The notes under the pieces are model-generated. The model was not told the origin of the DNA, did no database searches, and saw nothing but the letters and a program-made list of their open reading frames with translations. A DNA stretch of 64,000 bases from a virus: the IMG/VR virus record IMGVR_UViG_3300030098_005409; one strand, 5' to 3'. Positions 2,877 to 52,960 of the stretch are shown here, piece after piece. The translations under genes and the position numbers were made by a program. Position 1 is the first letter of the stretch. Each line of letters begins with the position of its first letter.

Positions 2877-3859
2877 TAGCAAGGCTCCTCGTTATCAGAA
2901 GTATACAAATCTCTTGAGAGTTGAGTTCTGGCAATCGTACCTTTAAGGGTGCTATCTTTTATACCCAATCTTTGGATTACCTCGTTGGGCATCTCAGAGT
3001 CAACAAATATGTTTGCAAAGAATTCAACCTTTTGATCACTTAAGTCTTCGTCTAAGTTATCGGACGCGAGGAAGGTTTTTTGTGTATATGTGCCATCGGA
3101 ACCCGATAGGAAAACTTCGATTTCAAAATTTTCTTTCAAATTGTCAGTATTTCTCTCAACGACATCCAGAACTAAATAATCTTCCTGCAAGTACAAAGAA
3201 ACACCAGTATCATTATCTTCCGTTAAGCGAACTATTTTGGCCGCTTCCTCAGATGTAAAATCATCCATTTCGTCATCGGATGAATAAAAAGATTTGTAAT
3301 CTATCGTTACATCAATTTGTGGGATATTTCGTACAATACCGTCTGCCAAACTGGTATTGCTGGCTGTAAGGTTAACTGTCTGATAATACTGACTGGAGGA
3401 TATTTCATTCTCAAGCGCATTGATGTGCCATGCCGGCGCATATTGCGTCTTAAGGTCGCTGGTTCCTAATGGGTCAGACCCTAGAAAAAACTTTTGTGCA
3501 AACTGCGGGGTGTCCTGGAACACGTTTACAAAATCAACCGAGTTTTCTGATATAACATATTGTCCAGTGGCGCTATCTTTCTCTTGTAAGGGCCCGGAAA
3601 CATCATCCAGAAACTGATTGACCCTTGTTTCAGCCCCTGTTGTGCTTTTTTGAACTTTAAGAGCGGGTGTATCGAATCGTATTCTTCTGTCAGCGTGGTT
3701 CTGACCTTCAGAAAATCCGGCTGCCTCTGTATTGTACAGAATATCATCGTCAAAAAAAGCATAAAATGCTGGCTTAAAGCGTCCAAGCTCTAGCTTTTTC
3801 TTGCCATATTCAGTTAGCTTAAATTCTAACACCTCTTCTTTTTTATCAAAAAAGCTCAT
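2876..3859 (-). CDS. conserved phage structural protein (tail/baseplate region)
   Basis: 327 aa; N-terminus FFDKKEEVLEFKLTEYGKKKL...YAFFDDDILY resembles proteins I recall from large aquatic phages; ATGA overlap with upstream gene. Confidence 0.65.
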   Translation of the reverse strand: MSFFDKKEEVLEFKLTEYGKKKLELGRFKPAFYAFFDDDILYNTEAAGFSEGQNHADRRIRFDTPALKVQKSTTGAETRVNQFLDDVSGPLQEKDSATGQYVISENSVDFVNVFQDTPQFAQKFFLGSDPLGTSDLKTQYAPAWHINALENEISSSQYYQTVNLTASNTSLADGIVRNIPQIDVTIDYKSFYSSDDEMDDFTSEEAAKIVRLTEDNDTGVSLYLQEDYLVLDVVERNTDNLKENFEIEVFLSGSDGTYTQKTFLASDNLDEDLSDQKVEFFANIFVDSEMPNEVIQRLGIKDSTLKGTIARTQLSRDLYTSDNEEPC

Positions 3860-19100: not shown

Positions 19101-21007
19101 ATAGATCCGATTGTATTGACGTTATTTCTGATTTGCGGCAAAGGATAATTTGAATTGAAGTCAAGAATTTTTGCATGTGTAGACGGCTCAACTTCCCTCT
19201 GAGAATTTAGTAAACGACAAACTTCTATGGGATTCAACACACTTGAGACATCTGAGAAATAAGAGTAAACCTGCTCTAGAGCTAAGCCATCTTGCGCAAA
19301 CTCAGCCTCCAAAAGCTCCTCAAGATTTGGGAAACTAACAGCTGCTCTTTGGTTGTCATCCCTTATCCTACTCCCGACATCAATAACACCCGTATTGCCT
19401 CTCAAGATAGCACCACAATTAAATTGTATTAATTCCACCAGTGATTTAATAACTGCGAAGGCGCCATTAGCAATTGCGCCCAAGACAATGTCTTTTATTT
19501 GATCTTTAATGTCCCCATTGATTGAAAACGGCTTCGCGAAGTTCTCAAACAGTTCAGCCAAATTTGGTCTTTTTATATTTATCTCTTTAGATGGAGGCAT
19601 TGGTTCTGTCTGAAGCGAACTAGCCTGCTGAATAATAGTGTTCCTAACTGACTGCGTAATTCTAGAGGCTGTAGCACCGAGGCCCAACGTTAAGCAAATA
19701 ATTGCTTCTTTTGCGAGGGCTTGAATTCCAAACTGGTTTAAAATCTGATTTACAATTTTTTGCTCTTTGGTAGCGTTGGGTCCAAATATCGGAACATTAA
19801 AATTCAGAACGGCGTCTATTGTGTCTACAATTTGAATTCCGGCATTGAGTTTCTTAGCTTTTTCTGCCTGAAGAATGTTCTTTTTTGTTTCTTCATTTTC
19901 AGCCTCTTCGATTTCTTTTAGTAACTCTTCTTTAGTTTTAAGCTTGCTGAACGTGTCCTCTAGCTGTTGTATGTTACTTACATCAATCAGATCATCTGAG
20001 GATCTGTTCCCAAAAATATTATTACCGGGAGTAATAGAGCCAGGAATATCCCCAATCTGTGGTGCGGTGAACGACCCTTCAATTCCAAGCGTCGAGAAAA
20101 AGTCTGTTATTGACTGCTGCTTTGTTAAGTTTGACTGTTGCTCCGATGATTCAATGATCTCTTTATAATTTTGAACTGTCTTTAAAGCCAAGGGGTCACT
20201 AAAAATTGGATTGTATTTAGAATTTGTAATAAACCCAATCTTTGCTTGCTTAGTTTCTCCACGAGTCACATTCAAAACAAAATAATCAACTCGCAGAATA
20301 TTTGAGTCTGCATCAAAGTACATTGTCAAATAATCGGTATCAAAGAAATTGCTCTCTTTAAGTTTAAAGTCCAAGCCCTCATATATGACACTCAGCAAAG
20401 CATTGACAATTCTATTGGTTGAGAAACCAAGAGTATTTGCGTCCAATGACAAAGGTATAATCCCCTTGAACAACGAAAGTCCGGCTGAGAAGTCACTAAT
20501 TGTTCCTGTCAGCTTGTCTAGAGAACTTGGCACATTTGCAAACTCAAAGCTTGTTGCCCCTGTCTCAGATCCTGCGTCTCTTTCATTGTTAAAGAACGCC
20601 AGAGCATCTAAGAAATCAGGTAACTTTTCTTCTTCTTCATACGCCTCTTTAAGGTCATAGATGTTTCCTTCTTGTAGTGATAGCTTATATGTGTTTTTGA
20701 TGTTAAATGGACCAGTTTTTTCCAAAAAAAGCGAATCTGAAATTGTATTGCGAAGTTCGTCATAGAAACCACTAAAACTAGCGAACTCAGCATTATTTCT
20801 GTCAACTACTAAAGGATAGTACTCTGGGAAATAATGCTCAATAAAATAGTCTGTGCATAGACGCTCTTGGGTATCTCTGGAACCGCGGGCGTCGACGTTT
20901 ACATAAAAGTTCATTATGTTGCCTACTTTATTGACAAATGGAATGCCCAGCAAAGTTTTAGAGATTAGAGACTGCAGCGATATAGCTTGTATTTCTGGGA
21001 TAGCCAT
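16130..21007 (-). CDS. large hypothetical protein, probably baseplate/tail-associated
   Basis: 1625-aa ORF between spike and gp25 genes; no recognisable domain. Confidence 0.7.
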   Translation of the reverse strand: MAIPEIQAISLQSLISKTLLGIPFVNKVGNIMNFYVNVDARGSRDTQERLCTDYFIEHYFPEYYPLVVDRNNAEFASFSGFYDELRNTISDSLFLEKTGPFNIKNTYKLSLQEGNIYDLKEAYEEEEKLPDFLDALAFFNNERDAGSETGATSFEFANVPSSLDKLTGTISDFSAGLSLFKGIIPLSLDANTLGFSTNRIVNALLSVIYEGLDFKLKESNFFDTDYLTMYFDADSNILRVDYFVLNVTRGETKQAKIGFITNSKYNPIFSDPLALKTVQNYKEIIESSEQQSNLTKQQSITDFFSTLGIEGSFTAPQIGDIPGSITPGNNIFGNRSSDDLIDVSNIQQLEDTFSKLKTKEELLKEIEEAENEETKKNILQAEKAKKLNAGIQIVDTIDAVLNFNVPIFGPNATKEQKIVNQILNQFGIQALAKEAIICLTLGLGATASRITQSVRNTIIQQASSLQTEPMPPSKEINIKRPNLAELFENFAKPFSINGDIKDQIKDIVLGAIANGAFAVIKSLVELIQFNCGAILRGNTGVIDVGSRIRDDNQRAAVSFPNLEELLEAEFAQDGLALEQVYSYFSDVSSVLNPIEVCRLLNSQREVEPSTHAKILDFNSNYPLPQIRNNVNTIGSINSYFARISQYVDTVTFCNDIINNNILQVVENCNICLDEDFYDSTPALDELIRIAEDGIEILPPPIEFLCPDSPNYLENPIATTILPNLFNNILGTTKTYMAGSLEAARTSLLEPTVSNVPNPDLSGALALFPDLEPPTAEMDPAVLNFITEMFDFFGDAAGAIESAASTGVCQDIDNAKIQNIINNVSTVVGTIDSALSEVPGVIEEVNEKVTSIQDQTAGEGMLHTQYIFPEAFKSRFQNAIQPYGILNTNLQVPALIESGSIFSFYNESNDNTGPIPFETISIRLLYNIQSPDSGNFSGSYASQTAANQSLYINYPKYQSNASTYLSLNYNLDSVDDLLVGEIENLVPGESPPLPANTAYAVKEFNPYVFRFVDPFEQQLGAGSFLALDNEGIVATVQEQFIPAYGTLFANLFDYILENGAFSADKINNLKFFKNNANCPPENIGDLFDAEGILDQMKKEFAAAACYDQGSTKDKTRNTLYYGLILMLIQAAIDEFIIKNIVVFSAFEMNSVLQLSFVKEFMVSEIIQSIESERLDGNSVLEREIYNYFDRVSIRQSTINNGGIAHTYPPYDIPVGFELNEAEGRANFPLNVYEPLIRFLVEERLYYTWDSGQRSTLGTINNIIDPQGKNKTFDDVFLEDVIGVYNLEEYQTTDRVIMARRLSSSYTDFNVAIYFQNVLSAPDTPAGLVRLNYVRRRVFANGDLSAPETATLFEINTGMSANILGVIKSSPEYQIFKQQVFNQDAIFMGPLLYNFYLTELFFSDIIDSFRGTKRAIINFMNMTDASTRPPLPDGLNDEYSNTLANNGQQDMDSMAREIFLKFLKETPIQILKGLVELIDPHIAISKIIKDVTADAFLKVSQAITTSISALPASSPIRTANINGEDVLSLLFCLYSIGNKTLTDTVSVTYPPGHPAAGTDVGDGAPLFGPRISLDGVDFKGSIAGMFMAPPSPLGILYLLIELLKIKIDEGLSDDNVDATEPPPSEEC

Positions 21008-28708: not shown

Positions 28709-29266
28709 TTACTTAATCGCCTGTAAGTTTTGCATAATATGAATTCCACTTTCTTTGCTCATGTGAGGGAAATAAGACTGACTTTGGTCATCGTAATTAA
28801 CATGAACATGATCTCTCCAGTCATAATCTTCCACATTTGTAAATCCACTGTCTTTTAAAGTCCTTAGCATTTCTGTCTTTGTGTATACTGTTTTATGATA
28901 GATTTTGTTAATTGGATTGTTATCTTCGTCAACAACATCCATTCTACCATAAAGAGGCCCTACTATTTTAGTTAAATCTTTGCCAGTTTTATAATATACA
29001 TCCAATAATTTGTCGAAATCAACCGTGGATATCCTTAGTATGCCACCCGGCTTTAATATGCGGTGCCATTCTTGCAAACACCGTGCTCCTTCGCGCCTGT
29101 CAAAGTACTGGAACGTGGCGCTTATATAGATTAGCGCGACACTATTGTCTTCAAACATACTTAAATCGCGAATGTCGGCTTTAAGATTTACATGCGGGTA
29201 ATCACTTAAATCAACATTATAAAACCCAGGTATATCTACCGCGCCACATCCTAAATGAAGTTTCAT
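28709..29266 (-). CDS. class I SAM-dependent methyltransferase
   Basis: LHLGCG motif I; EWHRILKPGG. Confidence 0.85.
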   Translation of the reverse strand: MKLHLGCGAVDIPGFYNVDLSDYPHVNLKADIRDLSMFEDNSVALIYISATFQYFDRREGARCLQEWHRILKPGGILRISTVDFDKLLDVYYKTGKDLTKIVGPLYGRMDVVDEDNNPINKIYHKTVYTKTEMLRTLKDSGFTNVEDYDWRDHVHVNYDDQSQSYFPHMSKESGIHIMQNLQAIK

Positions 29267-29890
29267 TTATTTTCCTTCCACAACAAAAATGCTCGATCTT
29301 CCAACTCGCCTCATTAGATCTGAGTCGTATCTCTTTAGGATTTGGGGCAAAAATTCGTTTCCATAGTCATACGTTCTACCGTATCTGGTGAACTGTAAGC
29401 CAGCGCTTGAGATTATGTCTTCCCAGAACTGCGGGCTCTCAAACCTTGTTCTATCACCTTCATCATCTAGGTTTTGTCTCAAATTGTTAGGCACATCAAA
29501 TACTATTCTTTTCGCCGCTTTACTTTGAATGTCTAAGATTTCTAGTATTTCCTCATCTTCAAAATGCTCCAAGACCCCCTGATGGATGATCGTATCTACT
29601 TTTCGCCTATACGTTTTTGAATTTAATATATTACCAACAAACAGATCGCCTCTCAAATGTTTATAGTGCTCTTGACAATTTTCAATTGCACTGGGCTCTA
29701 AATCAAATCCTGATACCTCATACCCCAAGTCTCTCAATAGCTCCAACGTTGTTCCGAAGCCAAACCCTGCTTCCATAATAGTCCCGCCATCTGGAGTGTG
29801 ATCTGTTATACACTCTATAAATTGCTCCTGTAGGATCGCTGTTCGAAACAGAGTGAATCTTTTTTCATTTAGCCATTTTTCCCATGCCAT
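29267..29890 (-). CDS. class I SAM-dependent methyltransferase
   Basis: MEAGFGFG motif I, GFDLE, HQGVLEHF. Confidence 0.8.
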   Translation of the reverse strand: MAWEKWLNEKRFTLFRTAILQEQFIECITDHTPDGGTIMEAGFGFGTTLELLRDLGYEVSGFDLEPSAIENCQEHYKHLRGDLFVGNILNSKTYRRKVDTIIHQGVLEHFEDEEILEILDIQSKAAKRIVFDVPNNLRQNLDDEGDRTRFESPQFWEDIISSAGLQFTRYGRTYDYGNEFLPQILKRYDSDLMRRVGRSSIFVVEGK

Positions 29891-29891
29891 A

Positions 29892-30305
29892 TTACACCTC
29901 TAATAAAACTTTGTCTTTTTCAACCCCTTGATATGGGCCTGTTTTGTATTCATAAACAATTGTGTTGTCCTTTAGGCACTCATAGTTGTGGCCGCCGCGG
30001 AATGTTATTGAGCAGTCTCCCTCATTGAGAGTACGGGTTGCGATAATAGTATCGTCTAAGTCGTATAAAATAGCCCTTATCTTTCCATCAATCACTACCC
30101 ATGATTCTTGAGCTATGTCGGTATACCTCTCTTGGTGTATGTGTTTGTGGGCCTTAAACGTTCTGCCGTTTTGCATCTTTATAGAGGCGACTTGCAAATA
30201 TTCCTCTTCAGGAGTAATATTGTCCCTAAAGGACACAATATCCTCTTTTCGATATATAATATGCAACAGAACGTCGTTTTCTAGTTTAGAAAATATTTTT
30301 TCCAC
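29892..30305 (-). CDS. cupin-fold protein (WbuC-like, sugar isomerase-like)
   Basis: AHKH...QES...GGHNY cupin metal ligands. Confidence 0.75.
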   Translation of the reverse strand: MEKIFSKLENDVLLHIIYRKEDIVSFRDNITPEEEYLQVASIKMQNGRTFKAHKHIHQERYTDIAQESWVVIDGKIRAILYDLDDTIIATRTLNEGDCSITFRGGHNYECLKDNTIVYEYKTGPYQGVEKDKVLLEV

Positions 30306-30973
30306 TACTGATCCTTATTTTTAAAAATCTCTAAATTAGAGAGATCATGGTATCGCCAAGACCCTCCACAGTCTTTATTCTCATCCGGTAAGTTTAAGAA
30401 TATTTTTATTCCGCGAGCAGCTTGCTCGGGGGGCATATACATATTCCAGCCAACCATTTCAATTTCATCCTGATCATATGGAACCTCTATATGGCGCCCC
30501 TCATATCTTGCGACCTTAAACCATCTTGCGGCCTCTGGGTCATCCGTCAGGATGATGCCACCCTTTCCAATATTGAGTATCTTTTTGATGTGAAAGGATA
30601 GACACTGATACGTTCCCGGGATGTACATCCCTTTCGTAAACCGCGTGGCGCCATCAATGATGGGGTACGGCTTAAGTTGATATGTACCAGACCACTCTAA
30701 ATCTTCAAATTCCAGGTCACATCCAGCATGCAGAATAGCCTGAGGCACCGAAACATAGCACTTAGAAGGAATTGTTATTTTGCCAGTAGCCTTGAGGTAT
30801 TTGAGGCATAAAAAAATGCCATCAGTGCAATTATCAACAGACACAGCATACTTGCTCCCCGCGTACTCAGCAACCATTTTTTCAAAGCTATCTACAATAT
30901 CCCACGGGTCATTTATGGTAAAGCCCATATTCTCAAGAACACCTATTGTTTCATCTAATGAATCTTCAAACAT
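30305..30973 (-). CDS. short DegT-family PLP aminotransferase (copy 2)
   Basis: FEKMVAEY...SVDNCTDG...IDGA...SFHIKK..IGKGGIILTDD; 222 aa; paralogue of 28002-28706. Confidence 0.8.
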   Translation of the reverse strand: MFEDSLDETIGVLENMGFTINDPWDIVDSFEKMVAEYAGSKYAVSVDNCTDGIFLCLKYLKATGKITIPSKCYVSVPQAILHAGCDLEFEDLEWSGTYQLKPYPIIDGATRFTKGMYIPGTYQCLSFHIKKILNIGKGGIILTDDPEAARWFKVARYEGRHIEVPYDQDEIEMVGWNMYMPPEQAARGIKIFLNLPDENKDCGGSWRYHDLSNLEIFKNKDQ

Positions 30974-30979
30974 ATTAAT

Positions 30980-31660
30980 TTACCTTCCCTCTGCAACGCA
31001 GTCGTAGTATTCTCCTATAATGAATTTCTTTTTTGTGGTGGCCGCTTTTGCAGTGTAAGAGCTATCGTAATATTTTTTAGGAAGAATTCTAAAATCAAAA
31101 CTTATTCTTGTCTTGCCTGTTTCATTAAATTTATTATAATGCAGACAGCGATTTCCATCCCACATAAATATGTCTCCATATTTTCCCTCCATAGGGTTAA
31201 AATCTTCCATCCCTGGGAAACTCTCAACCCATGGAGCATTGCTGCCATACATATCGGTTAGTGGCATCAGGAAACTTATTTCTCCATACGGATGTTGATG
31301 ATTCTCATCACTATCCTTGTGAACTGTTGTTATAGCCCTATTGCCAGGATAGTGAATCCTATAAGACGGAAAAGCTTGGTATATCAGACTCTTTTCCTTT
31401 GGAAACAGAGGGTGAATATAATCTTCTACAAAAGACCTATACATTTCCTTCATCTCAAGCCAGCCTAAGCCTAACTCATCATAAAATTTATTGTGTAGCG
31501 CACTTATCGTATCGCGGCCGAGGCCGGCTACATCATCTGGTATGTCATAGTATCCTGCCAGATCTTTATGAAGAGTGGATAAATCATCAACGTTATAGAG
31601 TTTCTCAATTGCTTCTTTAAACTTGTACTTTTCAGTTGAGAATTTTAATTTCTTATACAT
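30980..31660 (-). CDS. StrG-like 2OG-Fe(II) oxygenase
   Basis: YRIHYPGN...HKD (HxD)...GEISFLMPLT...LH..N.TGKTRISFDFR. Confidence 0.7.
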   Translation of the reverse strand: MYKKLKFSTEKYKFKEAIEKLYNVDDLSTLHKDLAGYYDIPDDVAGLGRDTISALHNKFYDELGLGWLEMKEMYRSFVEDYIHPLFPKEKSLIYQAFPSYRIHYPGNRAITTVHKDSDENHQHPYGEISFLMPLTDMYGSNAPWVESFPGMEDFNPMEGKYGDIFMWDGNRCLHYNKFNETGKTRISFDFRILPKKYYDSSYTAKAATTKKKFIIGEYYDCVAEGR

Positions 31661-33668
31661 GTTTTTTTAAAACCTCAATTTTTGCTTTACACGCAGCCAC
31701 CCGGCGACCCCACCATAGGCACTCTTTACCCCATTGAAAAAGATCACCATCATAATTTTTAGCTTTTACCCTAATTTCTTGCGGCTCCTCTACTAATTTA
31801 TGCCCAGAGTGGATAACGTCATGAATATTAAATCCTATTGTTTCTGTTAAAGGATATTGTCGAGTTGGGTCGACCACAGCCACATCTTGATATTTTATCA
31901 ACTCGTTTAGTAATTCATTATCCACATCATAACACGATATGATAAACTGTTTAATTTCTTTTTGAAAGGTGTCTTTGTTTTGAACTATCCGCATCGAAGT
32001 GGCTTCCTCAAAGTCCCACGCAAAGTTTTCTCTAACGTCGTCTAACACTCTCCCCCATGGGTGCTCAGCTTTCATCACCTGTTGCAAACTTTCTTTTGTC
32101 AACTGTAGCTCCTTTGCTAGGAACGAGTTGTCATCCGATGCTTTAATATATTCCATCAACGAAAGATAGAAGTCCTTAAACGATATATCTAAGTGTGAAT
32201 TTAAAAACCTAGACACAAATTGTAGATTACCAAGGTAATGAGCAAACATAAAAAACCAGCGATACACTGTACATTCCACGTATTCGTCCAGCGTCAGTGT
32301 TTTGCTTCCTACTACCATGTGTTCTCTTTCGAAATCATTTTGATCATTAATGTCAACATGAGAAAAAGCAGGATATGTTTCAATAATATTTAGATCATAT
32401 TTTTCAATATATTCTTTTTCCCCAAATGGAGTGTTTGGTAACGCTGTTAATGGGTAGATGCCAATATAGTTGTGTTGTCCCAATTCTATAACCTTAGAAA
32501 TTCCGTCAATAAAACTCTGTAATGTTTCTTCGGGGAGGCCCATAATTAATTCAACATAACTTGGCAATTCTTCTTGACTATACATTTTAAAAAATTCAGA
32601 CAGTTTGCCATTATCAACGTTTCTTCTACGTACAGCTTTGAGCGTTTCAGGATTCATAGACTGGAGTGCAATTGTGATACCTTTGTCCATATCTGCTTCG
32701 TAAAACAATTTGGCCAACGTTATAACAGAGTCAGCTTTATTCTTAGCCCAATCGCACCGGTGCTTTTCTGGATATCCTGTCTCCTTTTTCTTTTTCACAA
32801 AATATTTTGTAATTTCAAGATGATCTTTTAGCATTCCAAAGTTAGAGTCTGCGTTGTATACGAAAACAACCTTGTTATCTGACAGCCAATCAATCTCTTT
32901 GTAAACCTTTTCAAGACTTTGTGATTTAATTTTCTGGTAGTATTTCGTGCTTATTTCACAAAAAGTGCACTGAAATGGGCAACCCCTTGTTGTTTCAATT
33001 GCGGCTTCAATCTCATAAGGACAGTCCTTAACAAGTTCATCGAATAAGCCATCCAAATATGGACTCGGCATTGAATTAAGGTCTTGAATTCTTTGTCTAG
33101 GGAGGTTGACGTGCGTTGCATAGTCACTATCGTCCGCTGATATTTCGTCAAGTAGCTTTAGCCCATGACTTATTCGCCGTAGGCGCCCTTTGTTTTCAGA
33201 ACTTACCAATCTCATAGGAATAGAGCATCCGTCAATACTTTCCCAATTGGGACTAACTTTAAGATTTTCAATTAAAATTTCTTTAAATGTAATCTCTCCC
33301 TCGCCATGCACAGCGATATCTACATAGGGATGCTCCTTAAAAAAGTTTTGATTTCTATCCGACATTGGAACCTGCCAGCCACCGTATACGATCAGGCACT
33401 CCGGATATTTTTCTTTAATTTTTTTTGCTAACTGATTGTTAAACTTCCAATTCCAAACAAAACAATTAAAGCCGATAATGGAGGGGTTTTCTATCTTATT
33501 GAGAATGTCATCTAAGTCTTCTCTGTAATAGAACCAGCCCCCTAAATTATAGTTACTTTCTATCTGCTTGTCCGTTATACAATAAGACCATATAACGCCC
33601 GTGCTATACGGAAGTTTAATCTGTCCTGTTAAGACATCATTAATTTCAAATAAATATACATTTTTCAT
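31653..33668 (-). CDS. cobalamin-binding radical SAM enzyme
   Basis: N-terminal B12-binding domain (IIGFNCFVWN...IVYGG...GEGE) plus TRGCPFQCTFC (CxxxCxxC); start at ATGA overlap 33668. Confidence 0.9.
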   Translation of the reverse strand: MKNVYLFEINDVLTGQIKLPYSTGVIWSYCITDKQIESNYNLGGWFYYREDLDDILNKIENPSIIGFNCFVWNWKFNNQLAKKIKEKYPECLIVYGGWQVPMSDRNQNFFKEHPYVDIAVHGEGEITFKEILIENLKVSPNWESIDGCSIPMRLVSSENKGRLRRISHGLKLLDEISADDSDYATHVNLPRQRIQDLNSMPSPYLDGLFDELVKDCPYEIEAAIETTRGCPFQCTFCEISTKYYQKIKSQSLEKVYKEIDWLSDNKVVFVYNADSNFGMLKDHLEITKYFVKKKKETGYPEKHRCDWAKNKADSVITLAKLFYEADMDKGITIALQSMNPETLKAVRRRNVDNGKLSEFFKMYSQEELPSYVELIMGLPEETLQSFIDGISKVIELGQHNYIGIYPLTALPNTPFGEKEYIEKYDLNIIETYPAFSHVDINDQNDFEREHMVVGSKTLTLDEYVECTVYRWFFMFAHYLGNLQFVSRFLNSHLDISFKDFYLSLMEYIKASDDNSFLAKELQLTKESLQQVMKAEHPWGRVLDDVRENFAWDFEEATSMRIVQNKDTFQKEIKQFIISCYDVDNELLNELIKYQDVAVVDPTRQYPLTETIGFNIHDVIHSGHKLVEEPQEIRVKAKNYDGDLFQWGKECLWWGRRVAACKAKIEVLKKHV

Positions 33669-34360
33669 TGTGTGTGAATCCAAACTTCCTCGGCGCCGCA
33701 GTGCATTGACTTTTCATACTTCATGCTTTCTAATAATTTGCTAATTGGACCAGAATGATCATAACCCGTGCCCCTGACTTCTACATATATTATCTTGGGG
33801 CGATGAGGACCCAGGCCCATAAGACACTGTAAAGCATGCCCTTCAACATCTATATGCATTAAATCTATGGACGCAATGCCCTGTTCCTCGCAAAACTTTT
33901 CTATAGTTATACTTGGAACTTTAACGGGAGTTCTTATTTCCAGGGGCAGGCCGTCTGCTCTATCTGTGGAGCATAGCTCTTTGTCAATTGCTCCGCATGG
34001 AGCATAATTATCATTCTCACTATCGTAAGTTTCATAAAAGCTAACCTCTCCAATAGTATCAGAGATAGCATAGTTAAAAACTTTTAAGCCATATTGATTC
34101 AGTCCTTTCAAGTTATGAAAACAAGCTGGGGATGCCTCAATTGAATAAACATCGGCTGTGGGGAAGTGGTGCTTATATCTGATTCCATCCCCTCCATCAT
34201 ACGAACCGAATTCTAATATTGTTTGAACTTTTTTACACTGCTGATTAACAATTTGTATATTGAAGTTTGAGTGCCACAAGTCTCTGTTATTCCACGGATT
34301 AGAATAATTCTCTATCTTAATCCTGTTCCCTGGTAAAAATTCAACCTTACTTTGGCTCAT
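33665..34360 (-). CDS. FkbM-family methyltransferase
   Basis: LEFGSYDG, SIEAS, NYAISD, IDLMHIDVEG. Confidence 0.85.
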   Translation of the reverse strand: MSQSKVEFLPGNRIKIENYSNPWNNRDLWHSNFNIQIVNQQCKKVQTILEFGSYDGGDGIRYKHHFPTADVYSIEASPACFHNLKGLNQYGLKVFNYAISDTIGEVSFYETYDSENDNYAPCGAIDKELCSTDRADGLPLEIRTPVKVPSITIEKFCEEQGIASIDLMHIDVEGHALQCLMGLGPHRPKIIYVEVRGTGYDHSGPISKLLESMKYEKSMHCGAEEVWIHTQ

Positions 34361-35169: not shown

Positions 35170-36074
35170 GAATACTCTCCTTCTTGGTTTTTATCAATAA
35201 TATCCTTTATAAAAGGCCAAATGTTATATTTCTCTAAAACTAAATTCCTTGCATGGTCGATTGCATCTATATTAATTTTTGTTATTGGTCTATCAATTAT
35301 ATCAGAAAACTCTCTAAGAGCTTCAGTCGGATTTTCAATGTTTATTGTATGATAAGATTCCGTAGGATAAAGCTCTTCTATGTTAGGGCACCCCCAATAA
35401 ATAGGCATTGTCCAACATAAAAACGGCTCCCATACTCTAGTACAAAAATTTTTTAACCTACCATTCTCTAGCGAAAGGGAATAATGATAAGGCTGTAATC
35501 CTTCATATTTACATCTTTTAGGGGGACCGGTAAGGGGCAGACCCCCCTTATAAGATGGCCCAAAATCCTCTGCTTTTAAAGTTTTGCCATAAAAATCAAT
35601 TCGATCAGAATGTTGAGCGGCCGCCATTTTAGCAAAATTTAATCTCAGAGACTGACCAAGGGTGAACCTCTTGTTGGTCAATATGCAACTGACACTGTTA
35701 TGCCCTTGGGTGGTGCGTATTTTTTCAGGATATTTCATGTTCTTTAGCTCCGAGAAAGTTTTTTTTACCCACCAGAGTGCATAAGTGTAGTGGTTGTCAT
35801 AAGTGTAGATATGCTTCGCGTACGCGGGGGGCGTATATCGACGGACATGTGTTGGCTCTCTTTGTAAAAAAAAGGTTTTATCTAAATTAAGCCAATTAGG
35901 ATTAAAGCCACTCGGGAGCCCATCTAGGACAAAGCAATACTCCGCGTCGTTAAGATTAGATACTGCTACTATATCTTCCCAGACATATCCCCCATCAGGA
36001 TTTTGGGACCTGCAGTGCTCCAAATACTGCGCTGGGGTTTCCCCCCAGTTGTTAAGAAGAAGGACTTTTTTCAA
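35166..36074 (-). CDS. glycosyltransferase family 10 (alpha-1,3-fucosyltransferase-like)
   Basis: YHYSLSLEN......TRVWEPFL...PIYWGCPNI matches the GT10 alpha-1,3 motif; TTG start. Confidence 0.8.
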   Translation of the reverse strand: MKKVLLLNNWGETPAQYLEHCRSQNPDGGYVWEDIVAVSNLNDAEYCFVLDGLPSGFNPNWLNLDKTFFLQREPTHVRRYTPPAYAKHIYTYDNHYTYALWWVKKTFSELKNMKYPEKIRTTQGHNSVSCILTNKRFTLGQSLRLNFAKMAAAQHSDRIDFYGKTLKAEDFGPSYKGGLPLTGPPKRCKYEGLQPYHYSLSLENGRLKNFCTRVWEPFLCWTMPIYWGCPNIEELYPTESYHTINIENPTEALREFSDIIDRPITKINIDAIDHARNLVLEKYNIWPFIKDIIDKNQEGEYS

Positions 36075-36717
36075 GATATAATCTCACATCCGCGCCATAT
36101 AGGTCATTAAACTTTTTTGATACTCTCTTATTATTTCTTGCCCAGAGAACCAGTTCCTTCTTATACATCTTCGCAAAACTATTCATGTTAGGCAATATAA
36201 AATGTTGTCCTCGGCGCGCACAAAATTTAGAAAAATCCTGTGTAATGGTCTCAAAAAATAAATAATTATCTATTTCTACTTCGTTACCGGCGTCATCTGT
36301 AACAAAATAAGCCTGGGGCTTTAAATGGCCATCAAAAAAGCCATACTCTGCGATTTCATCCAGTAAACACTCAAATCGATCCGGTTCGTTATTCAATAAT
36401 ATAAATTTTTTATCAGCTACAGTATTATAAATGTTCTCGGGTCGATGGCCTCTGAGTACTTCATAGTAAGCAGATACAATCCTCTCTAAAGGGTCTCTTA
36501 AAACAACAAATGTTTCATATTCGTGAAAATTGTCTAGCTTGCAGAGGTCTGAATATGATGTTCTGTATGATCCTTTCATAAGAGGAGACTTCCTGATTGC
36601 AGTGCTAGCGTTTTTCGGGATCACAAAAAATATAACTTTATTAGTATGACTAACCCAACAATAGTCTTTAAGCTTGTTTTCAATTCTTAATCTAAAATTT
36701 TCGTAATCTTTGTTCAT
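36052..36717 (-). CDS. sulfotransferase (Sulfotransfer_2 family)
   Basis: IPKNAST (5'-PSB loop), LRDPLERIVSAY (3'-PB), HLKPQ; start at TAATG overlap. Confidence 0.8.
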   Translation of the reverse strand: MNKDYENFRLRIENKLKDYCWVSHTNKVIFFVIPKNASTAIRKSPLMKGSYRTSYSDLCKLDNFHEYETFVVLRDPLERIVSAYYEVLRGHRPENIYNTVADKKFILLNNEPDRFECLLDEIAEYGFFDGHLKPQAYFVTDDAGNEVEIDNYLFFETITQDFSKFCARRGQHFILPNMNSFAKMYKKELVLWARNNKRVSKKFNDLYGADVRLYLEKSPSS

Positions 36718-37586
36718 TAAAGACTCCACTTGTCCTTTTCTTCCCTAAAACGGCGGGCCCAATAACTCATAGTGGATTTATCCAAGCTAGACGTATTAAG
36801 TATTTTATCATACTGATCTATCAAAAAATCCTCTGTTATATCACTCAGATCATCATATACTAATATTGGTAAATCTAGGTAAAAATTAATATTTAGGTGT
36901 CTTGGTATTATAGGAATTGATCCTAAATAAATTGCTTGCCAGACGCGGCCGCAATCAACACCGTTGCCTAGTGGCGAAACCACGTATTTGTGATCATACA
37001 AGTTTTGATAGTACTCACCCATTTTGTTAAAATGGGATGAATTTTCATATTCACTTAAGGGTATATCACACGGCTTTTGTGTAACCCAGTCGTTGTCTTT
37101 AAAGTAATTATATACCTCTCTTCTGTGGCTTGGGTTTGTGTGTATGCCAAAATCTAGGTAAACTAAGTTTTTAAAGTTCTTCTCTACATTGTCTTCATCT
37201 ATAATAGTAAACTCTGGAGAGTCTTTAGCCTCAGCAAATTCTGACGTACCAATCCAAGTTGAGCTTGCTGATCCTAGTGGTATTGATTCTAGGATTGGAT
37301 GATCATAGGTTATATTAATACCGAACCACTTGACAATATTACTCGGTGCATTTCCAAATATTCTTTCATCAATTGGATAATCGCTATGATGTGTTACAAT
37401 TATATACTTGTTTTGCGTGTTTTTTCTGCACTCGTTAAGCAATCCAGCAACAAAATCTGTCTTACTAAACACAATATAGACTCCCGTTTGGTTTGGTAAA
37501 GCCTGTCCTGGTTTGTACACAATATCACATAATGTCTCAAATCTCTCGCCAACAATTCTATCTTGCTGCTCTACAGTACACTTCAT
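36717..37586 (-). CDS. exostosin/GT47-like glycosyltransferase
   Basis: KYVVSPLGNGVDCGRVWQAIYLGSIPI. Confidence 0.7.
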   Translation of the reverse strand: MKCTVEQQDRIVGERFETLCDIVYKPGQALPNQTGVYIVFSKTDFVAGLLNECRKNTQNKYIIVTHHSDYPIDERIFGNAPSNIVKWFGINITYDHPILESIPLGSASSTWIGTSEFAEAKDSPEFTIIDEDNVEKNFKNLVYLDFGIHTNPSHRREVYNYFKDNDWVTQKPCDIPLSEYENSSHFNKMGEYYQNLYDHKYVVSPLGNGVDCGRVWQAIYLGSIPIIPRHLNINFYLDLPILVYDDLSDITEDFLIDQYDKILNTSSLDKSTMSYWARRFREEKDKWSL

Positions 37587-47679: not shown

Positions 47680-48999
47680 TCACAAATTTTGTGCGGCGAA
47701 TGTAGCAACTCTTGAACGCTCGCCCTTTAGAAGAGTTACGTGAGCAGCCAACTCAAAGTCTTTAAATTTCTCAACAGCATGAGTCAAGCCGTTCGTAGTA
47801 GCATCTATGTAAACGTTATCAATCTGTTCTACATCGCCCGTCAGCACAATCTTGGTTCCTTCACCAACTCTTGTTATTATAGTCTTTAATTCGTGAGTTG
47901 TCAAGTTTTGTGCCTCATCAATGATAATAAAAGCCTTTCCAATAGAACGACCGCGGATATAAGTGATCGCTTCAATCTCAATCGTGCCCTTCTCCAAGTA
48001 CATGTCAAGCGTAACCTTGTCATTGCCCATTAGAGTCTGAAGATTATCCTGAATCGGCATCAACCAGGGAGACATTTTTTCTTCCATCGTACCCGGTAAG
48101 AAGCCAATGTCCTTTCCTAGCGGCTGTACGGGTCTAGAAACGATTACACGGGTGTAGGTGGATGTTCTCTCGTCTAAGGTCTGTTCAAGGGCCGCAGCGA
48201 TCGCACAGAGCGTCTTACCGCTACCTGCTTTACCAATGGCTGTGATAACCTCAATGTCTGGGTCCATAAGGGCGTCTATCAAAAACGACTGCTCTTTGTT
48301 TCTCGGCTTGATGCCCCACACGCCCCTCTTTTCTTTTCGCAGCTGCCGTACGGGCGTATGTTCATTGATAAATCTTCCCAACGCAGTCTTTTTTTCATTT
48401 GCATTAGAAATAAGCATTACATACTCATTTGTTTTAAGATTAGTGTCTTCGAGATAAACGTCTTTTTTATCATAAAACTGATCTATTATTCCATCATCTA
48501 CTAAAACCTCTGAAAACCCAGTGTATATACTATCGCTATCATCGACAATCTGTTGATTTTGGAAATCCTCACACGGCAGCCCAATAGCATCTGCGGTAAC
48601 TCGCATGTTAATGTCGCGAGAAACAAGAATAACTTTTCTTTCAGATTCTCTTGCGACTGCTCTCGCAGTCGCGATAATAAGATGATCAGGGATCTTAATA
48701 TCTAAATCTTGTGGCAGATCATCTCTGTCTATATCTGCGGCAGATACTGATTTAACAATCCCCAGTCCTTGGCGAATGCGGACACCTTTTTTAAGGTTAC
48801 CCTTAGAGCGAAGTTCGTCCCAAATGCGTATAATCTTCCGCGCCTGGACTCCTACAAGGTCCTGACGCTTCTTGTGTTTGTCAATTTCCTCAAATACTTT
48901 TAAAGGGACATATACATCATTGTTTTTAAAAGCGTATATTGCGTCTGCGTTCGTTAAATAAACACTAGTATCTAACACATAAATCTTCTTACGGCTCAT
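47680..48999 (-). CDS. phoH: PhoH-family ATPase with N-terminal PIN domain (PhoH2/YlaK type)
   Basis: PIN: VLDTSV...EEID...PDHLI...SRD; PhoH: GKAGSGKT, GFLPG, RGRS, DEAQN, GDVEQID. Confidence 0.95.
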   Translation of the reverse strand: MSRKKIYVLDTSVYLTNADAIYAFKNNDVYVPLKVFEEIDKHKKRQDLVGVQARKIIRIWDELRSKGNLKKGVRIRQGLGIVKSVSAADIDRDDLPQDLDIKIPDHLIIATARAVARESERKVILVSRDINMRVTADAIGLPCEDFQNQQIVDDSDSIYTGFSEVLVDDGIIDQFYDKKDVYLEDTNLKTNEYVMLISNANEKKTALGRFINEHTPVRQLRKEKRGVWGIKPRNKEQSFLIDALMDPDIEVITAIGKAGSGKTLCAIAAALEQTLDERTSTYTRVIVSRPVQPLGKDIGFLPGTMEEKMSPWLMPIQDNLQTLMGNDKVTLDMYLEKGTIEIEAITYIRGRSIGKAFIIIDEAQNLTTHELKTIITRVGEGTKIVLTGDVEQIDNVYIDATTNGLTHAVEKFKDFELAAHVTLLKGERSRVATFAAQNL

Positions 49000-49033: not shown

Positions 49034-49531
49034 TTAATAGTTTCCAACTTTTGCTATATCGCCGGATGCTAAAACCTCGACTTTTGATGGCTTTAGATCA
49101 TCCTCGGACAAAGGTGGTGGCTCCATCCCTGCATCTGATACGAGTGTTGAGGAGCTTTGAATCTTACCGCCGCCTACACCCCAAAGCATCTCAATACCTA
49201 ACTCTTCGCATACATTCATCTCTGGTGTGTTGTTCGTCTTCCGATCGCCGCCGTTAGCAAAATAATCTGGTTTAATCCTCCGGAGAGCCTCACACACGGT
49301 ACCATCCCTATCATCAACGTTGGTTGTTTCTCCGGTTCCAGTGAAGCCTTCCAGAATTTCACATCGCTCATCAAATGGCATAAAAATATAGCCTTTCTTT
49401 CGCATCAGCCAATCATCCGAGTTAACAACAACCACTACGTGACCATATCGAGATGCCTCCTGAATCATCCTTAGGTGTCCAATATGAACCGGATCAAAAC
49501 CTCCGGACACACAAATAGTTTTCTTACTCAT
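49034..49531 (-). CDS. cytidylyltransferase-like (HIGH motif; TagD/RfaE family)
   Basis: SGGFDPVHIGH, VNSD, GGDR, KIQSSS; start at ATG 49531 overlapping upstream stop. Confidence 0.9.
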   Translation of the reverse strand: MSKKTICVSGGFDPVHIGHLRMIQEASRYGHVVVVVNSDDWLMRKKGYIFMPFDERCEILEGFTGTGETTNVDDRDGTVCEALRRIKPDYFANGGDRKTNNTPEMNVCEELGIEMLWGVGGGKIQSSSTLVSDAGMEPPPLSEDDLKPSKVEVLASGDIAKVGNY

Positions 49532-49763
49532 CTTCATCTGTCTCCGTCCGTGAAAGGAAGTTTCTTTCAATAGCACCGATTGCTTCTTCGGCATATGCCA
49601 GATTTCCAATTGCTGTGGCTATTTCATTTACAACACTTGGGTGCTTAGCAACTCCGATAGGGTTGTTCAAATATAACTCAATAACCGCGATTGCCTCTTG
49701 TCTATCTGCTTCAAAGCGAGCAAGGGTTGCTCGCACTAATTGTTCAGCCATCATATTACTCAT
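49524..49763 (-). CDS. hypothetical protein
   Basis: AGGAG SD before ATG 49763; the longer ORF-track start lies inside tRNA-Pro and is spurious. Confidence 0.75.
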   Translation of the reverse strand: MSNMMAEQLVRATLARFEADRQEAIAVIELYLNNPIGVAKHPSVVNEIATAIGNLAYAEEAIGAIERNFLSRTETDEDE

Positions 49764-49782: not shown

Positions 49783-49860
49783 TGGTCGGGGCGGTAGGAT
49801 TCGAACCTACGACCCCCTGCTCCCAAAGCAGGTGCGCTAACCAGACTGCGCTACGCCCCG
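49783..49860 (-). tRNA. trnP: tRNA-Pro(UGG)
   Basis: full cloverleaf CGGGGCG/CGCCCCG, anticodon arm CCTGC-TTTGGGA-GCAGG, GGTTCGAAT, encoded CCA. Confidence 0.97.
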
Positions 49861-50292
49861 AATAATCTCCCATGTTTGATCTGGCAATAACTCAACCTCA
49901 GCCAAGAACTTGCCGGGATCTATTTTAATCCATTGATTGTCAGCTATTAAGGATAAAAAGTAAGTACCATCTTTTCTTTCATATAGAAAGTACTTATTTC
50001 CTATTACCGGCTGGATATTGAAATCTGCTTCGTAAATAATTTTAGACACATCCACTCGTTCTTTTACTTCTTTTACTTGTTCCATAATTAATTCAGCTTG
50101 CTTTCTTAGTTTATCTATTTCTTTTTCAGCATACCTCTCGGCTGCTGAGATGGCACGTCCCTTGATTGAGGACATGTCATTTGGTCTAATCGCGGGCGCT
50201 GCGGTATTCGTTCCATATGGCTTAATATTAGCATCAAATTCTTCTGTTTCATAGTTGTATACAACGTTGTCAGGAAATTTTTCTTTTGACAT
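49837..50292 (-). CDS. DUF2452-like protein; last 8 codons overlap tRNA-Pro
   Basis: PYGTNTAAPAI...YEADFNIQPVIGNKYFLYERKDG..FLSLI...W recalled as DUF2452. Confidence 0.7.
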   Translation of the reverse strand: MSKEKFPDNVVYNYETEEFDANIKPYGTNTAAPAIRPNDMSSIKGRAISAAERYAEKEIDKLRKQAELIMEQVKEVKERVDVSKIIYEADFNIQPVIGNKYFLYERKDGTYFLSLIADNQWIKIDPGKFLAEVELLPDQTWEIIRGVAQSG

Positions 50293-50296
50293 TCTC

Positions 50297-50704
50297 TTAC
50301 CATCGATGGTCTTTACCAGACCAGTCCTTAAACTCTTCTTTGCCTCCTCTTACACTCCAATCGGAATCTATTGTTAGTTTTGATGATAGTCCGCCTCTGG
50401 GATTGAAGTCCATTTCTATTCGAAGCCTGTTAGGGTCATAAACACTAATCAAGTCGTCATATACAACATTTATTAATCTTTCGTATGAAAGAAGTCGGTT
50501 TCGAAAATCTTGAAAATATTTTTTCAAAGACTTTAATTCAATAATGGTGTCTTTTGGATAAAAGACAATCCAGGCGGTTGCAAAATCGGGCTGATCTTTA
50601 ACTCCAATAAACGTAATTTCTGGATTTTTAATATTAATCTCATATCCATCCCCTGACGGATTTGGTAGAGTTTTTAGAATTGTTTTATCACTCCACTGTC
50701 TCAT
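50297..50704 (-). CDS. queF: QueF-like T-fold protein lacking the catalytic cysteine
   Basis: PNP...PE.T....QPDFA...ELKSLK.Y...FRN....E...DDL...P...F.PRGG; no Cys anywhere in the protein. Confidence 0.8.
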   Translation of the reverse strand: MRQWSDKTILKTLPNPSGDGYEINIKNPEITFIGVKDQPDFATAWIVFYPKDTIIELKSLKKYFQDFRNRLLSYERLINVVYDDLISVYDPNRLRIEMDFNPRGGLSSKLTIDSDWSVRGGKEEFKDWSGKDHRW

Positions 50705-50729: not shown

Positions 50730-50805
50730 TGGTGGAGATGACAGGATTCGAACCTGCGACCTGATGCGTGCAAGGCAACTGCTCTCCCAACTGAGCTACA
50801 TCCCC
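50730..50805 (-). tRNA. trnA: tRNA-Ala(UGC)
   Basis: GGGGATG/CATCTCC acceptor stem with G3:U70, anticodon TGC, encoded CCA; U28:U42 mismatch. Confidence 0.95.
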
Positions 50806-50810
50806 ATATA

Positions 50811-50886
<76 letters not shown>

Positions 50887-52647: not shown

Positions 52648-52960
52648 TGGTGGAGGTGGTGGGAATCGAACCCACGTCCAAAGCATATCCAACTTCAAGT
52701 CATTCACAGGTATAGTTTGTTTCTCTAAACAAACAAAGTATCAAATTCGATTCAATCCGCTCAAAAAAGCAAAAGCGTTTTTTTGGTTGTGTTCTTCTTG
52801 GACACCCGGCGAAGAACAACCGGGGATTAAGCAGCTAGTGCTAAACCGTAATCTGCGTCGTTTGCAGTTATATGTTTCTAACTAAAGTTTTATGTGATTG
52901 AGTTAGCTGTCACAACCTGCACTATCCATCTTCCTTACCCTGTCGAAACCTGTCACCCCC
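52648..52960 (-). ncRNA. ssrA: tmRNA (313 nt), tag (A)ANDADYGLALAA
   Basis: 5' GGGGGTG...TTCGAC; 3' GACGTGGGTTCGATTCCCACCACCTCCACCA; G3:U pair; tag ORF 52865-52827 after ATAACT. Confidence 0.95.

What the first reader, a model, noticed from the sequence alone, without database searches (positions are those of the whole stretch)
50297..50704. QueF homologue with no cysteine: a non-catalytic deazaguanine binder?
Seen: the unimodular QueF framework is intact (QPDFA, ELKSLK, FRN, substrate Glu in SYE, PRGG). However, EFTSLCP reads EITFIGV and the protein has no Cys at all. Known: both QueF nitrile reductase and QueF-L amidinotransferase need a Cys thioimide. No other que/dpd genes are in the window, and the gene sits among tRNAs. 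Inference: neofunctionalised as a preQ0/CDG sponge (e.g. against QueC-dependent Qat/type IV CBASS deazaguanylation, or to alter host tRNA queuosine), or a dominant-negative subunit.
Basis: partly seen in the sequence, partly recalled or inferred. Interest (0 to 1): 0.7.

Follow-up and report, generated by a model that had tools for sequence, protein, structure and literature searches.

The report
Cysteine-less QueF relative, methyl-cycle enzyme
This small phage gene looks like the queuosine enzyme QueF but belongs to a large, undescribed cysteine-less sister family that sits with methionine and SAM-cycle genes in bacteria and other phages, so it is more likely a folate-handling enzyme that supports methyl-group supply than a deazaguanine sponge.

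Summary
Window 50297-50704 (-) encodes a 135-aa unimodular QueF-fold protein with no cysteine. The thioimide Cys is Gly, while the NADPH motif, the general-acid Asp and the substrate-anchoring Glu are kept.

The Cys loss is not unique to this contig. The same E-x-T-F-x-G motif and an extra conserved C-terminal tail define a family with over 100 metagenomic clusters, about 40 viral contigs and about 350 bacterial species.

- **Bacteria:** the gene lies between the two halves of split metH, or in methionine operons, behind SAM riboswitches. In Flavobacteriales, 18 of 21 carriers lack MetF, against 24 of 180 non-carriers.
- **Other phages:** it lies next to metK and/or ahcY in eight separate gene contexts.
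- **Queuosine link:** no queC was found in related phage records, and some carrier bacteria have no QueC at all.

My best reading is an NAD(P)H-dependent folate oxidoreductase of the methionine/SAM cycle, most likely MetF-like. Here it would serve as an auxiliary gene in a phage rich in SAM-using enzymes.

This is inference only. 22 of 50 carriers keep MetF, and candidate-phyla-radiation (CPR) carriers have no methionine synthase. The sponge and dominant-negative ideas are not supported. This scan has met the same family on other DNA several times.

The parts
50297..50704 (-). CDS of the cysteine-less QueF-like protein (QueFL), 135 aa plus stop
   Evidence: ORF list and translation; PF14489 and TIGR03139 matches; QueF T-fold model; purifying selection
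50603..50605 (-). GGA codon for Gly34, at the position of the QueF thioimide cysteine (B. subtilis Cys55)
   Evidence: Alignment to 4f8b/4fgc; sequence read; Gly is invariant in viral, cellular and CPR members
50582..50593 (-). QPDF (residues 38-41), holding the Asp that is the general acid/base in QueF and QueF-L
   Evidence: role of the Asp from PMC5485725
50513..50539 (-). ELKSLKKYF (residues 56-64), the QueF motif tied to NADPH use in QueF
   Evidence: E56, L57, S59 and K61 invariant and K58 nearly so; the motif's role is established knowledge of QueF
50480..50488 (-). SYE (residues 73-75). Glu75 is the equivalent of Glu97, the anchor for the 2-amino-4-oxopyrimidine ring. Tyr replaces His96.
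50300..50368 (-). Family-specific C-terminal tail IDSDWxxRGGxExFKDWxGxxxW (residues 113-135), absent from Cys-bearing QueF
   Evidence: Alignment A1; conserved in viral, cellular and CPR sets; low pLDDT in the monomer model
50730..50886 (-). tRNA-Ala(TGC) and tRNA-Thr(TGT) directly upstream on the same strand. These are context, not a functional partner.
49837..50292 (-). DUF2452-like ORF starting 4 nt after the QueFL stop. Full-length in one of the five syntenic relatives (L002); the other four have only a shorter, weakly similar ORF or none; absent from other QueFL contexts.
28709..34360 (-). Possible SAM consumers of this phage: two class-I methyltransferases (28709-29266, 29267-29890), a 676-aa radical-SAM protein (31653-33683) and an FkbM methyltransferase (33665-34360). 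They lie inside a glycan-building cluster. The link to QueFL is inferred.

Best explanation
The gene encodes a member of a conserved, cysteine-less sister family of unimodular QueF that has left queuosine and 7-deazaguanine metabolism. It keeps the T-fold pocket that anchors a 2-amino-4-oxopyrimidine ring (Glu75), the general-acid Asp40 and the NADPH motif. I therefore read it as an NAD(P)H-dependent oxidoreductase acting on a folate or pterin in the methionine/SAM (activated methyl) cycle. The most likely reaction is direct hydride transfer between NAD(P)H and the N5-iminium carbon of 5,10-methylene-THF, giving 5-methyl-THF. That would make it a flavin-free functional analogue of MetF. With the pyrimidine rings superposed, that carbon lies roughly where the nitrile carbon of preQ0 sits in QueF, and an iminium needs no covalent thiol activation. 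In the phage it would be an auxiliary metabolic gene that keeps 5-methyl-THF, then methionine, then SAM flowing for the phage's SAM-using enzymes. What is shown: the fold, the motifs, the family-wide Cys loss, the gene contexts, the riboswitch control and the distribution. What is inferred: the substrate, the reaction, its direction and the benefit to the phage. I put about 0.7 on a link to the methyl cycle and not to queuosine, and about 0.35 on MetF-like chemistry specifically.
For: - **Family-wide trait:** 120 of 120 closest protein clusters and 80 of 80 bacterial loci carry E-x-T-F-x-G in place of the Cys motif. The invariant residues are the same in viral, bacterial and CPR sets.
- **Bacterial context:** metH is adjacent in 27 of 80 loci. 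In Flavobacteriales and relatives the order is metH-N, QueFL, metH-C on one strand. In Niastella-type genomes the order is O-acetylhomoserine sulfhydrylase-type PLP enzyme, QueFL, homoserine dehydrogenase.
- **Regulation:** a SAM riboswitch (RF00162, 72-87 bits) lies just upstream of these operons in 7 of 7 such loci scanned.
- **Distribution:** of 201 Flavobacteriales genomes, 18 of 21 carriers have no PF02219 MetF, against 24 of 180 non-carriers (Fisher p = 1.5e-11, not corrected for phylogeny). Among 50 wider carriers, 16 of 18 with metH-adjacent QueFL lack MetF. 45 of these 50 have a MetH homocysteine domain.
- **Phages:** of 41 viral loci, metK is adjacent in L099, L102-L105, L111, L114 and the giant-virus contig L132. 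ahcY is adjacent in L099, L102-L105, L114, L115, L126 and L127. An FkbM methyltransferase overlaps the QueFL start in L011, and a DNA methylase lies nearby in L102.
- **Not queuosine:** no QueC in five related phage records. G001 and G002 carry QueFL but no real QueC. G004 and G005 carry a normal bimodular QueF plus QueC in addition to QueFL.
- **Not DHFR:** CPR carriers all have canonical DHFR.
- **This phage:** the window holds three SAM methyltransferases and a radical-SAM enzyme.
Against: - No biochemical data exist. Everything about the substrate is guilt by association plus geometry.
- 22 of 50 carriers keep MetF, including 9 of the 11 cultured ones in my sample. Marinilabiliaceae keep a metH-metF cluster and have QueFL elsewhere. 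Earlier checks of this scan (e1-1361939, e1-5294965) also reported that most cultured carriers keep MetF.
- Five CPR carriers have no MetH, MetE or MetF, so 5-methyl-THF would have no known consumer there.
- In four carrier-free Flavobacteriales, metF is not next to metH, so there is no positional replacement.
- In this window's own lineage QueFL lies among tRNAs with no metK or ahcY.
- The T-fold pocket binds purines as readily as pterins.
- The MetF anticorrelation is not phylogenetically corrected, and many carriers are incomplete MAGs.
Confidence: 0.45

Rival explanations
1. The protein is a different reductase or repair enzyme of the same cycle. Examples are reducing oxidised 5-methyl-dihydrofolate or a quinonoid dihydropterin back to the usable form, or running methyl-THF to methylene-THF to release salvaged 5-methyl-THF for thymidylate synthesis.
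For: This fits co-occurrence with MetF in 22 of 50 carriers. It also fits CPR carriers, which have ThyA and DHFR but no methionine synthase or MetF. ThyX is present in 2 of 5 related phage records. The motifs and contexts are the same as for the best explanation.
Against: It does not by itself explain why 18 of 21 Flavobacteriales carriers lack MetF although they have metH. Oxidising methyl-THF with NAD(P)+ is thermodynamically uphill (established knowledge).
Confidence: 0.25
2. One reading: a non-catalytic preQ0/CDG/guanine binder, acting as a sponge against QueC-dependent defence or queuosine supply, or a dominant-negative subunit that poisons host QueF.
For: The thioimide Cys is missing while the ring-anchoring Glu and Asp remain. 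No que/dpd genes were found in the window or in related phages. The gene occurs in many phages.
Against: The same protein is chromosomal in about 350 bacterial species under SAM-riboswitch control in methionine operons. Its invariant NADPH motif has no use in a sponge. Some carriers lack QueC and any other QueF. Its phage neighbours are metK and ahcY, not defence-related genes. It is only 31-38% identical to true QueF, so mixed decamers are unlikely.
Confidence: 0.05
3. It is still a preQ0 reductase that works without the cysteine, by direct hydride transfer to the nitrile.
For: It scores over the TIGR03139 cut-off. In G001-G003 it is the only QueF-family gene, and G003 does have QueC.
Against: G001 and G002 have no QueC. 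G004 and G005 have a full bimodular QueF next to or alongside QueC in addition to QueFL. Related phages have no QueC. SAM-riboswitch and metH context is not expected for a Q gene. Both studied enzymes of the fold need the Cys (PMC5485725).
Confidence: 0.04
4. It is a non-enzymatic regulator or carrier of the methionine cycle, for example a folate- or purine-binding partner of MetH.
For: It is inserted between the two halves of split metH. A ferredoxin gene follows QueFL directly in several phages, which might relate to MetH reactivation.
Against: The catalytic Asp and the NADPH motif are invariant. CPR and some other carriers have no MetH at all. A MetH partner would not be expected to be enriched where MetF is missing.
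Confidence: 0.1

Closest known systems
Unimodular QueF (YkvM type), NADPH-dependent 7-cyano-7-deazaguanine reductase, EC 1.7.1.13 (B. subtilis; PDB 4f8b, 4fgc, 5udg)
   Same: Same T-fold (TM 0.78, 31-34% identity). It shares the QueF/NADPH motif, the QPDF Asp, the ring-anchoring Glu and the RGG segment, and passes the PF14489 and TIGR03139 thresholds.
   Different: The catalytic Cys55 is Gly and His96 is Tyr. There is an extra invariant C-terminal tail. It has no genomic tie to queC/D/E/tgt and is instead tied to metH, SAM riboswitches, metK and ahcY. In a quick tree the Cys-bearing sequences group on one side of a single branch; support is moderate (SH-aLRT 91 for their clade) and the branch uniting the Cys-less side is weak.
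QueF-L, archaeosine synthase of Crenarchaeota (PDB 5jyx, 5k0p), and phage QueF/QueF-L of Dp-1 and HVTV-1
   Same: Same tunnel fold. Phage-encoded homologues exist and are annotated alike.
   Different: QueF-L keeps the Cys and Asp and forms a thioimide (PMC5485725). The characterised phage enzymes sit with preQ0-pathway genes and yield dPreQ1 (PMC6884629). The window protein has no Cys and no such genes nearby.
MetF / MTHFR (PF02219), and the flavin-independent Mfr of mycobacteria
   Same: The proposed reaction, the link to metH, SAM-riboswitch control and partial phyletic complementarity are shared. Direct hydride transfer without flavin has a precedent in Mfr (PMC11094777, abstract listed).
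   Different: There is no sequence or fold relation: MetF and Mfr are TIM barrels, and this is a 135-aa T-fold. The activity is untested, and many carriers also keep MetF.
Viral SAM-cycle auxiliary genes (metK, ahcY)
   Same: Adjacent to QueFL in eight separate viral gene contexts.
   Different: This window's lineage carries QueFL alone. None was found in the window itself, in the loci fetched from five syntenic relatives, or in the whole records of three of them.

Membership tests
QueF nitrile reductase (EC 1.7.1.13) | T-fold / PF14489 domain | tested here: met
   PF14489 at 2.5e-21; TM 0.78 to 4f8b/4fgc
QueF nitrile reductase (EC 1.7.1.13) | Catalytic cysteine that forms the thioimide with preQ0 (B. 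subtilis Cys55) | tested here: not met
   Gly34 at the aligned position and no Cys in the whole protein; Gly is invariant across the family
QueF nitrile reductase (EC 1.7.1.13) | QueF motif E(S/L)K(S/A)hK(L/Y)(Y/F/W), tied to NADPH use | tested here: met
   ELKSLKKYF at residues 56-64, conserved
QueF nitrile reductase (EC 1.7.1.13) | Substrate-anchoring Glu and general-acid Asp | tested here: met
   Glu75 (SYE) and Asp40 (QPDF) align to Glu97 and Asp62
QueF nitrile reductase (EC 1.7.1.13) | Occurs together with the preQ0 pathway (queC/D/E, tgt or dpdA) | tested here: not met
   No QueC in five related phage records; none listed in the window; carriers G001 and G002 lack QueC
QueF nitrile reductase (EC 1.7.1.13) | Reduces preQ0 to preQ1 with NADPH | not testable with these tools
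   Needs an enzyme assay
QueF-L amidinotransferase | Conserved Cys (Cys21) forming a thioimide, with no NADPH motif | tested here: not met
   No Cys and the NADPH motif is present; definition from PMC5485725
MetF / MTHFR, as a functional analogue and not a homologue | FAD-binding TIM barrel (PF02219) | tested here: not met
   No PF02219 match; only QueF-type families match
MetF / MTHFR, as a functional analogue and not a homologue | Gene context and regulation with methionine synthase and SAM | tested here: met
   Met for the family: metH adjacent in 27 of 80 loci and SAM riboswitch in 7 of 7 such operons scanned. Not met in this window itself.
MetF / MTHFR, as a functional analogue and not a homologue | Present where MetF is absent but a methyl-THF consumer exists | tested here: inconclusive
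   18 of 21 Flavobacteriales carriers lack MetF, against 24 of 180 non-carriers. But 22 of 50 wider carriers keep MetF, and CPR carriers have no methionine synthase.
MetF / MTHFR, as a functional analogue and not a homologue | Converts 5,10-methylene-THF to 5-methyl-THF | not testable with these tools
   Needs an assay or metF complementation
Phage anti-defence sponge proteins | Phage-restricted distribution, with sequestration and no catalysis | tested here: not met
   About 350 bacterial species carry it as a chromosomal gene in regulated metabolic operons. Binding itself was not tested.

The most novel reading that the evidence does not exclude
The family is a new, flavin-free class of methylenetetrahydrofolate reductase built on the QueF T-fold. 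It replaces MetF in several bacterial lineages and is carried by large phages and giant viruses, often with metK and ahcY, as a 135-aa module that keeps the host methyl cycle running during infection.
Probability: 0.35. Interest if true: 0.85.

Novelty: new variant of a known kind. Interest (0 to 1): 0.6.

Why it matters
Databases label this family 7-cyano-7-deazaguanine reductase or preQ1 synthase, and it passes the NCBIfam equivalog cut-off. Hundreds of bacterial and viral genes are therefore probably misnamed, and queuosine or 7-deazaguanine DNA modification would be wrongly predicted for their carriers.

If the family handles methyl-folate, three things would follow:
- It would fill the missing MetF step in MetH-containing bacteria that lack MetF.
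- It would add a new chemistry to the T-fold superfamily.
- It would complete a virus-encoded SAM-cycle set (metK, ahcY and this gene), which bears on how phages pay for DNA, glycan and RNA methylation.

I found no paper describing a cysteine-less QueF branch or linking QueF-like proteins to folate or methionine metabolism.

Tried and rejected
- **Positional replacement of metF not supported:** in four carrier-free Flavobacteriales, metH is not within 7 kb of metF.
- **Domain fusions uninformative:** only a few Lar-QueFL fusions and one likely chimeric FliM fusion turned up.
- **metK in this lineage:** none was found in the window, in the fetched loci of the five syntenic relatives, or in the whole records of three of them (L002, L003, L005).
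- **CPR neighbourhoods uninformative**.
- **Radical-SAM ORF is not QueE:** it is 676 aa and lies in a glycan cluster.
- **Tree is limited:** it is a quick one with weak inner support. I use it only for the grouping of Cys-bearing against Cys-less sequences and the nearness of viral and CPR sequences.
- **Window family scan incomplete:** it showed 25 of 31 families.

Full report
**1. The observation**

Window 50297-50704 (-) is an intact 135-aa ORF with an ATG start, a GAGG about 12 nt upstream and no cysteine. It matches PF14489 QueF at 2.5e-21. It even passes the TIGR03139 'preQ1 synthase' equivalog cut-off, 93 against 86.9 bits.

Against B. subtilis QueF (4f8b/4fgc), PEFTSLCPKTGQPDF aligns with PEITFIGVK-DQPDF. 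The thioimide Cys55 is therefore Gly34, encoded by GGA at 50603-50605. The QPDF Asp, the ELKSLKKYF motif, FRN, the Glu of SYE (Glu97 equivalent, with His96 replaced by Tyr) and PRGG are all kept.

An AlphaFold2 model (pLDDT 81) gives the QueF T-fold, TM 0.78 to 4fgc/4f8b. The last 23 residues are poorly defined in the monomer.

Synonymous codon differences outnumber non-synonymous ones, 59-74 against 16-31, versus five syntenic phage relatives. The gene is therefore functional.

**2. The setting**

The window is part of a large tailed phage with nearly all genes on the minus strand. It has baseplate and tape-measure-like genes, a PIN-PhoH fusion, a tmRNA, three tRNAs and a large glycan-building cluster. 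It has no close cultured relative.

Five IMG/VR contigs are syntenic, up to 148 kb and estimated 82% complete. QueFL lies 25 nt downstream of tRNA-Ala. Four nt after its stop comes a DUF2452-like ORF that is found only in this lineage.

**3. The Cys loss defines a family**

All 120 closest protein clusters (63-85% identity) carry E-x-T-F-x-G-(V/A) in place of the Cys motif, and 108 of them have no Cys at all. They also share an invariant C-terminal tail, IDSDWxxRGGxExFKDWxGxxxW, which true QueF lacks.

A scan of one genome per prokaryotic species found 350 relatives. They occur in Bacteroidota, Syntrophorhabdaceae, Kangiellaceae, Nitrospirota, Bacillota and candidate-phyla-radiation (CPR) bacteria, among others, at 59-69% identity to the phage protein.

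About 40 viral contigs carry the gene, including jumbo phages and a giant-virus MAG. In a quick tree the Cys-bearing QueFs group on one side of a single branch, with moderate support (SH-aLRT 91 for their clade). The viral sequences sit close to the CPR and a few other bacterial ones. Inner supports are weak.

The invariant residues are the same in viral, bacterial and CPR sets, so one biochemical activity is expected.

**4. What the family goes with in bacteria**

- **metH:** it is adjacent in 27 of 80 loci. In Crocinitomicaceae, Flammeovirgaceae and other Flavobacteriales-type genomes the order is metH-N (homocysteine domain), QueFL, metH-C (pterin, B12 and activation domains) on one strand.
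- **Methionine biosynthesis:** in Niastella and Longitalea the order is a Cys/Met PLP enzyme, QueFL, homoserine dehydrogenase.
- **SAM riboswitch:** Rfam finds one (72-87 bits) directly upstream of these operons in 7 of 7 such loci scanned.
- **Independence from queuosine:** two carriers (G001, G002) have no real QueC. Two others (G004, G005) have a normal bimodular QueF and QueC besides QueFL. One (G003) has QueC and only QueFL.

**5. Test of the MetF-replacement idea**

- **Flavobacteriales sample:** of 201 genomes, 21 carry QueFL. Eighteen of those lack PF02219 MetF, against 24 of 180 non-carriers (Fisher p = 1.5e-11, not corrected for shared ancestry).
- **Wider sample:** of 50 non-CPR carriers, 28 lack MetF and 45 have a MetH homocysteine domain. 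Of the 18 with metH-adjacent QueFL, 16 lack MetF.
- **Against the idea:** 22 of 50 carriers keep MetF, including 9 of the 11 cultured ones. Marinilabiliaceae keep a metH-metF cluster and have QueFL elsewhere.
- **CPR carriers:** five of them have DHFR (5/5) and ThyA (4/5) but no MetH, MetE or MetF.

MetF replacement therefore fits some lineages and not others. A DHFR role is excluded by the CPR data. The reverse reaction, or a repair reaction, remains open.

**6. What it goes with in viruses**

Clustering the neighbours of 41 viral loci gave three recurrent partners.

- **SAM synthetase (metK):** next to QueFL in L099, L102-L105, L111, L114 and the giant-virus contig L132.
- **S-adenosylhomocysteine hydrolase (ahcY):** next to QueFL in L099, L102-L105, L114, L115, L126 and L127.
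- **Others:** a small ferredoxin follows QueFL in several loci, an FkbM methyltransferase overlaps its start in L011, and a DNA methylase is nearby in L102.

That makes eight separate viral gene contexts of roughly twenty. It is an association independent of the bacterial one and points to the same cycle.

Five related phage records have no QueC, two have ThyX, and none has ThyA or metK. In the window's own lineage QueFL stands alone. However, the window encodes three SAM-dependent methyltransferases and a 676-aa radical-SAM protein in its glycan cluster, so SAM demand is plausible.

**7. Mechanism**

Shown:
- a QueF T-fold with the ring-anchoring Glu, the general-acid Asp and the NADPH motif, all invariant;
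- Gly in place of the nucleophile;
- a new invariant tail.

Inferred:
- The ligand still has a 2-amino-4-oxopyrimidine ring, as in a pterin or folate, or possibly a purine.
- With that ring placed as in QueF, the N5-methylene iminium carbon of 5,10-methylene-THF falls roughly where the preQ0 nitrile carbon lies.
- An iminium accepts hydride directly, so the thiol is not needed.
- The Asp could protonate N10 to open the imidazolidine ring.
- The tail, rich in Arg, Trp and Asp, could hold the p-aminobenzoyl-glutamate part at a subunit interface.

Flavin-free direct hydride transfer to methylene-THF has a precedent in mycobacterial Mfr (PMC11094777, abstract listed).

**8. Comparison with what is known**

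Both studied enzymes of this fold, QueF and QueF-L, depend on the Cys and the Asp (PMC5485725). Characterised phage QueF and QueF-L sit with preQ0-pathway genes and give dPreQ1 (PMC6884629).

The window protein fails the defining Cys test and the pathway-context test, so it should not be filed as QueF or QueF-L. It is not homologous to MetF. Searches of the held literature found nothing on a Cys-less QueF branch, or on a QueF-like protein in folate or methionine metabolism.

**9. Earlier notes of this scan**

The same family was flagged on other DNA several times. Follow-up agents proposed a methyl-folate role. Later checks upheld the metH neighbourhood but found that most cultured carriers keep MetF, and priced the folate-reductase claim low.

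My counts agree on both points. They add a strong lineage-specific anticorrelation in Flavobacteriales and the CPR counter-example. I have set my odds accordingly.

**10. Verdict**

My best reading is an NAD(P)H-dependent folate oxidoreductase of the methionine/SAM cycle carried as a phage auxiliary gene. I give about 0.7 to the cycle link, about 0.35 to MetF-like chemistry, and 0.45 overall as stated. The family is undescribed and widely misannotated, and the question is directly testable with a simple assay and metF complementation.

Noticed in passing
window 52648-52960 (-): A full-length tmRNA gene (133 bits, tag peptide ANDADYGLALAA) is encoded by the phage, 2 kb from the tRNA cluster.
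   Followed up: no
window 49783-50292 (-): The DUF2452-like ORF (49837-50292) ends 24 nt inside tRNA-Pro (49783-49860). Its stop codon therefore lies within the tRNA, as another first-stage note (e1-5805819) also says. I checked only the coordinates.
   Followed up: partly
window 47680-48999 (-): A PIN_4 domain is fused to PhoH (439 aa). It is conserved next to a cytidylyltransferase-like gene (49034-49609) in many QueFL-carrying phages.
   Followed up: partly
window about 25000-46100 (-): A large glycan-building and decorating cluster. It holds three GDP-mannose-dehydratase/epimerase-type genes, two DegT aminotransferases, several glycosyltransferases, a sulfotransferase (36052-36729), three SAM methyltransferases and a 676-aa radical-SAM protein (31653-33683).
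   Followed up: partly
window 3856-12339 (-) and 16130-21007 (-): Two giant ORFs of 2827 and 1625 aa lie in the tail/baseplate region. They were not characterised.
   Followed up: no
L124-L128, L130 (about 6400-6670 in each): A 4Fe-4S single-cluster ferredoxin gene of about 78-109 aa directly follows QueFL in several marine phages. In L126 and L127 it is followed by ahcY.
   Followed up: partly
L131 4992-5330; L132 2059-2394 and 5136-6365: Giant-virus MAG contigs carry a shorter, tail-less QueFL (about 120 aa). In L132 a SAM synthetase gene lies about 3 kb away.
   Followed up: partly
L013-L015, L018, L021 (genomes G206-G210): CPR bacteria carry QueFL at 61-68% identity to the phage protein. 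They have no MetH, MetE or MetF but do have DHFR and ThyA. This is unexplained by the methionine reading.
   Followed up: partly
P0126, P0271, P0272: Rare proteins fuse a Lar restriction-alleviation domain to QueFL. They are probably phage gene fusions or gene-calling artefacts.
   Followed up: no
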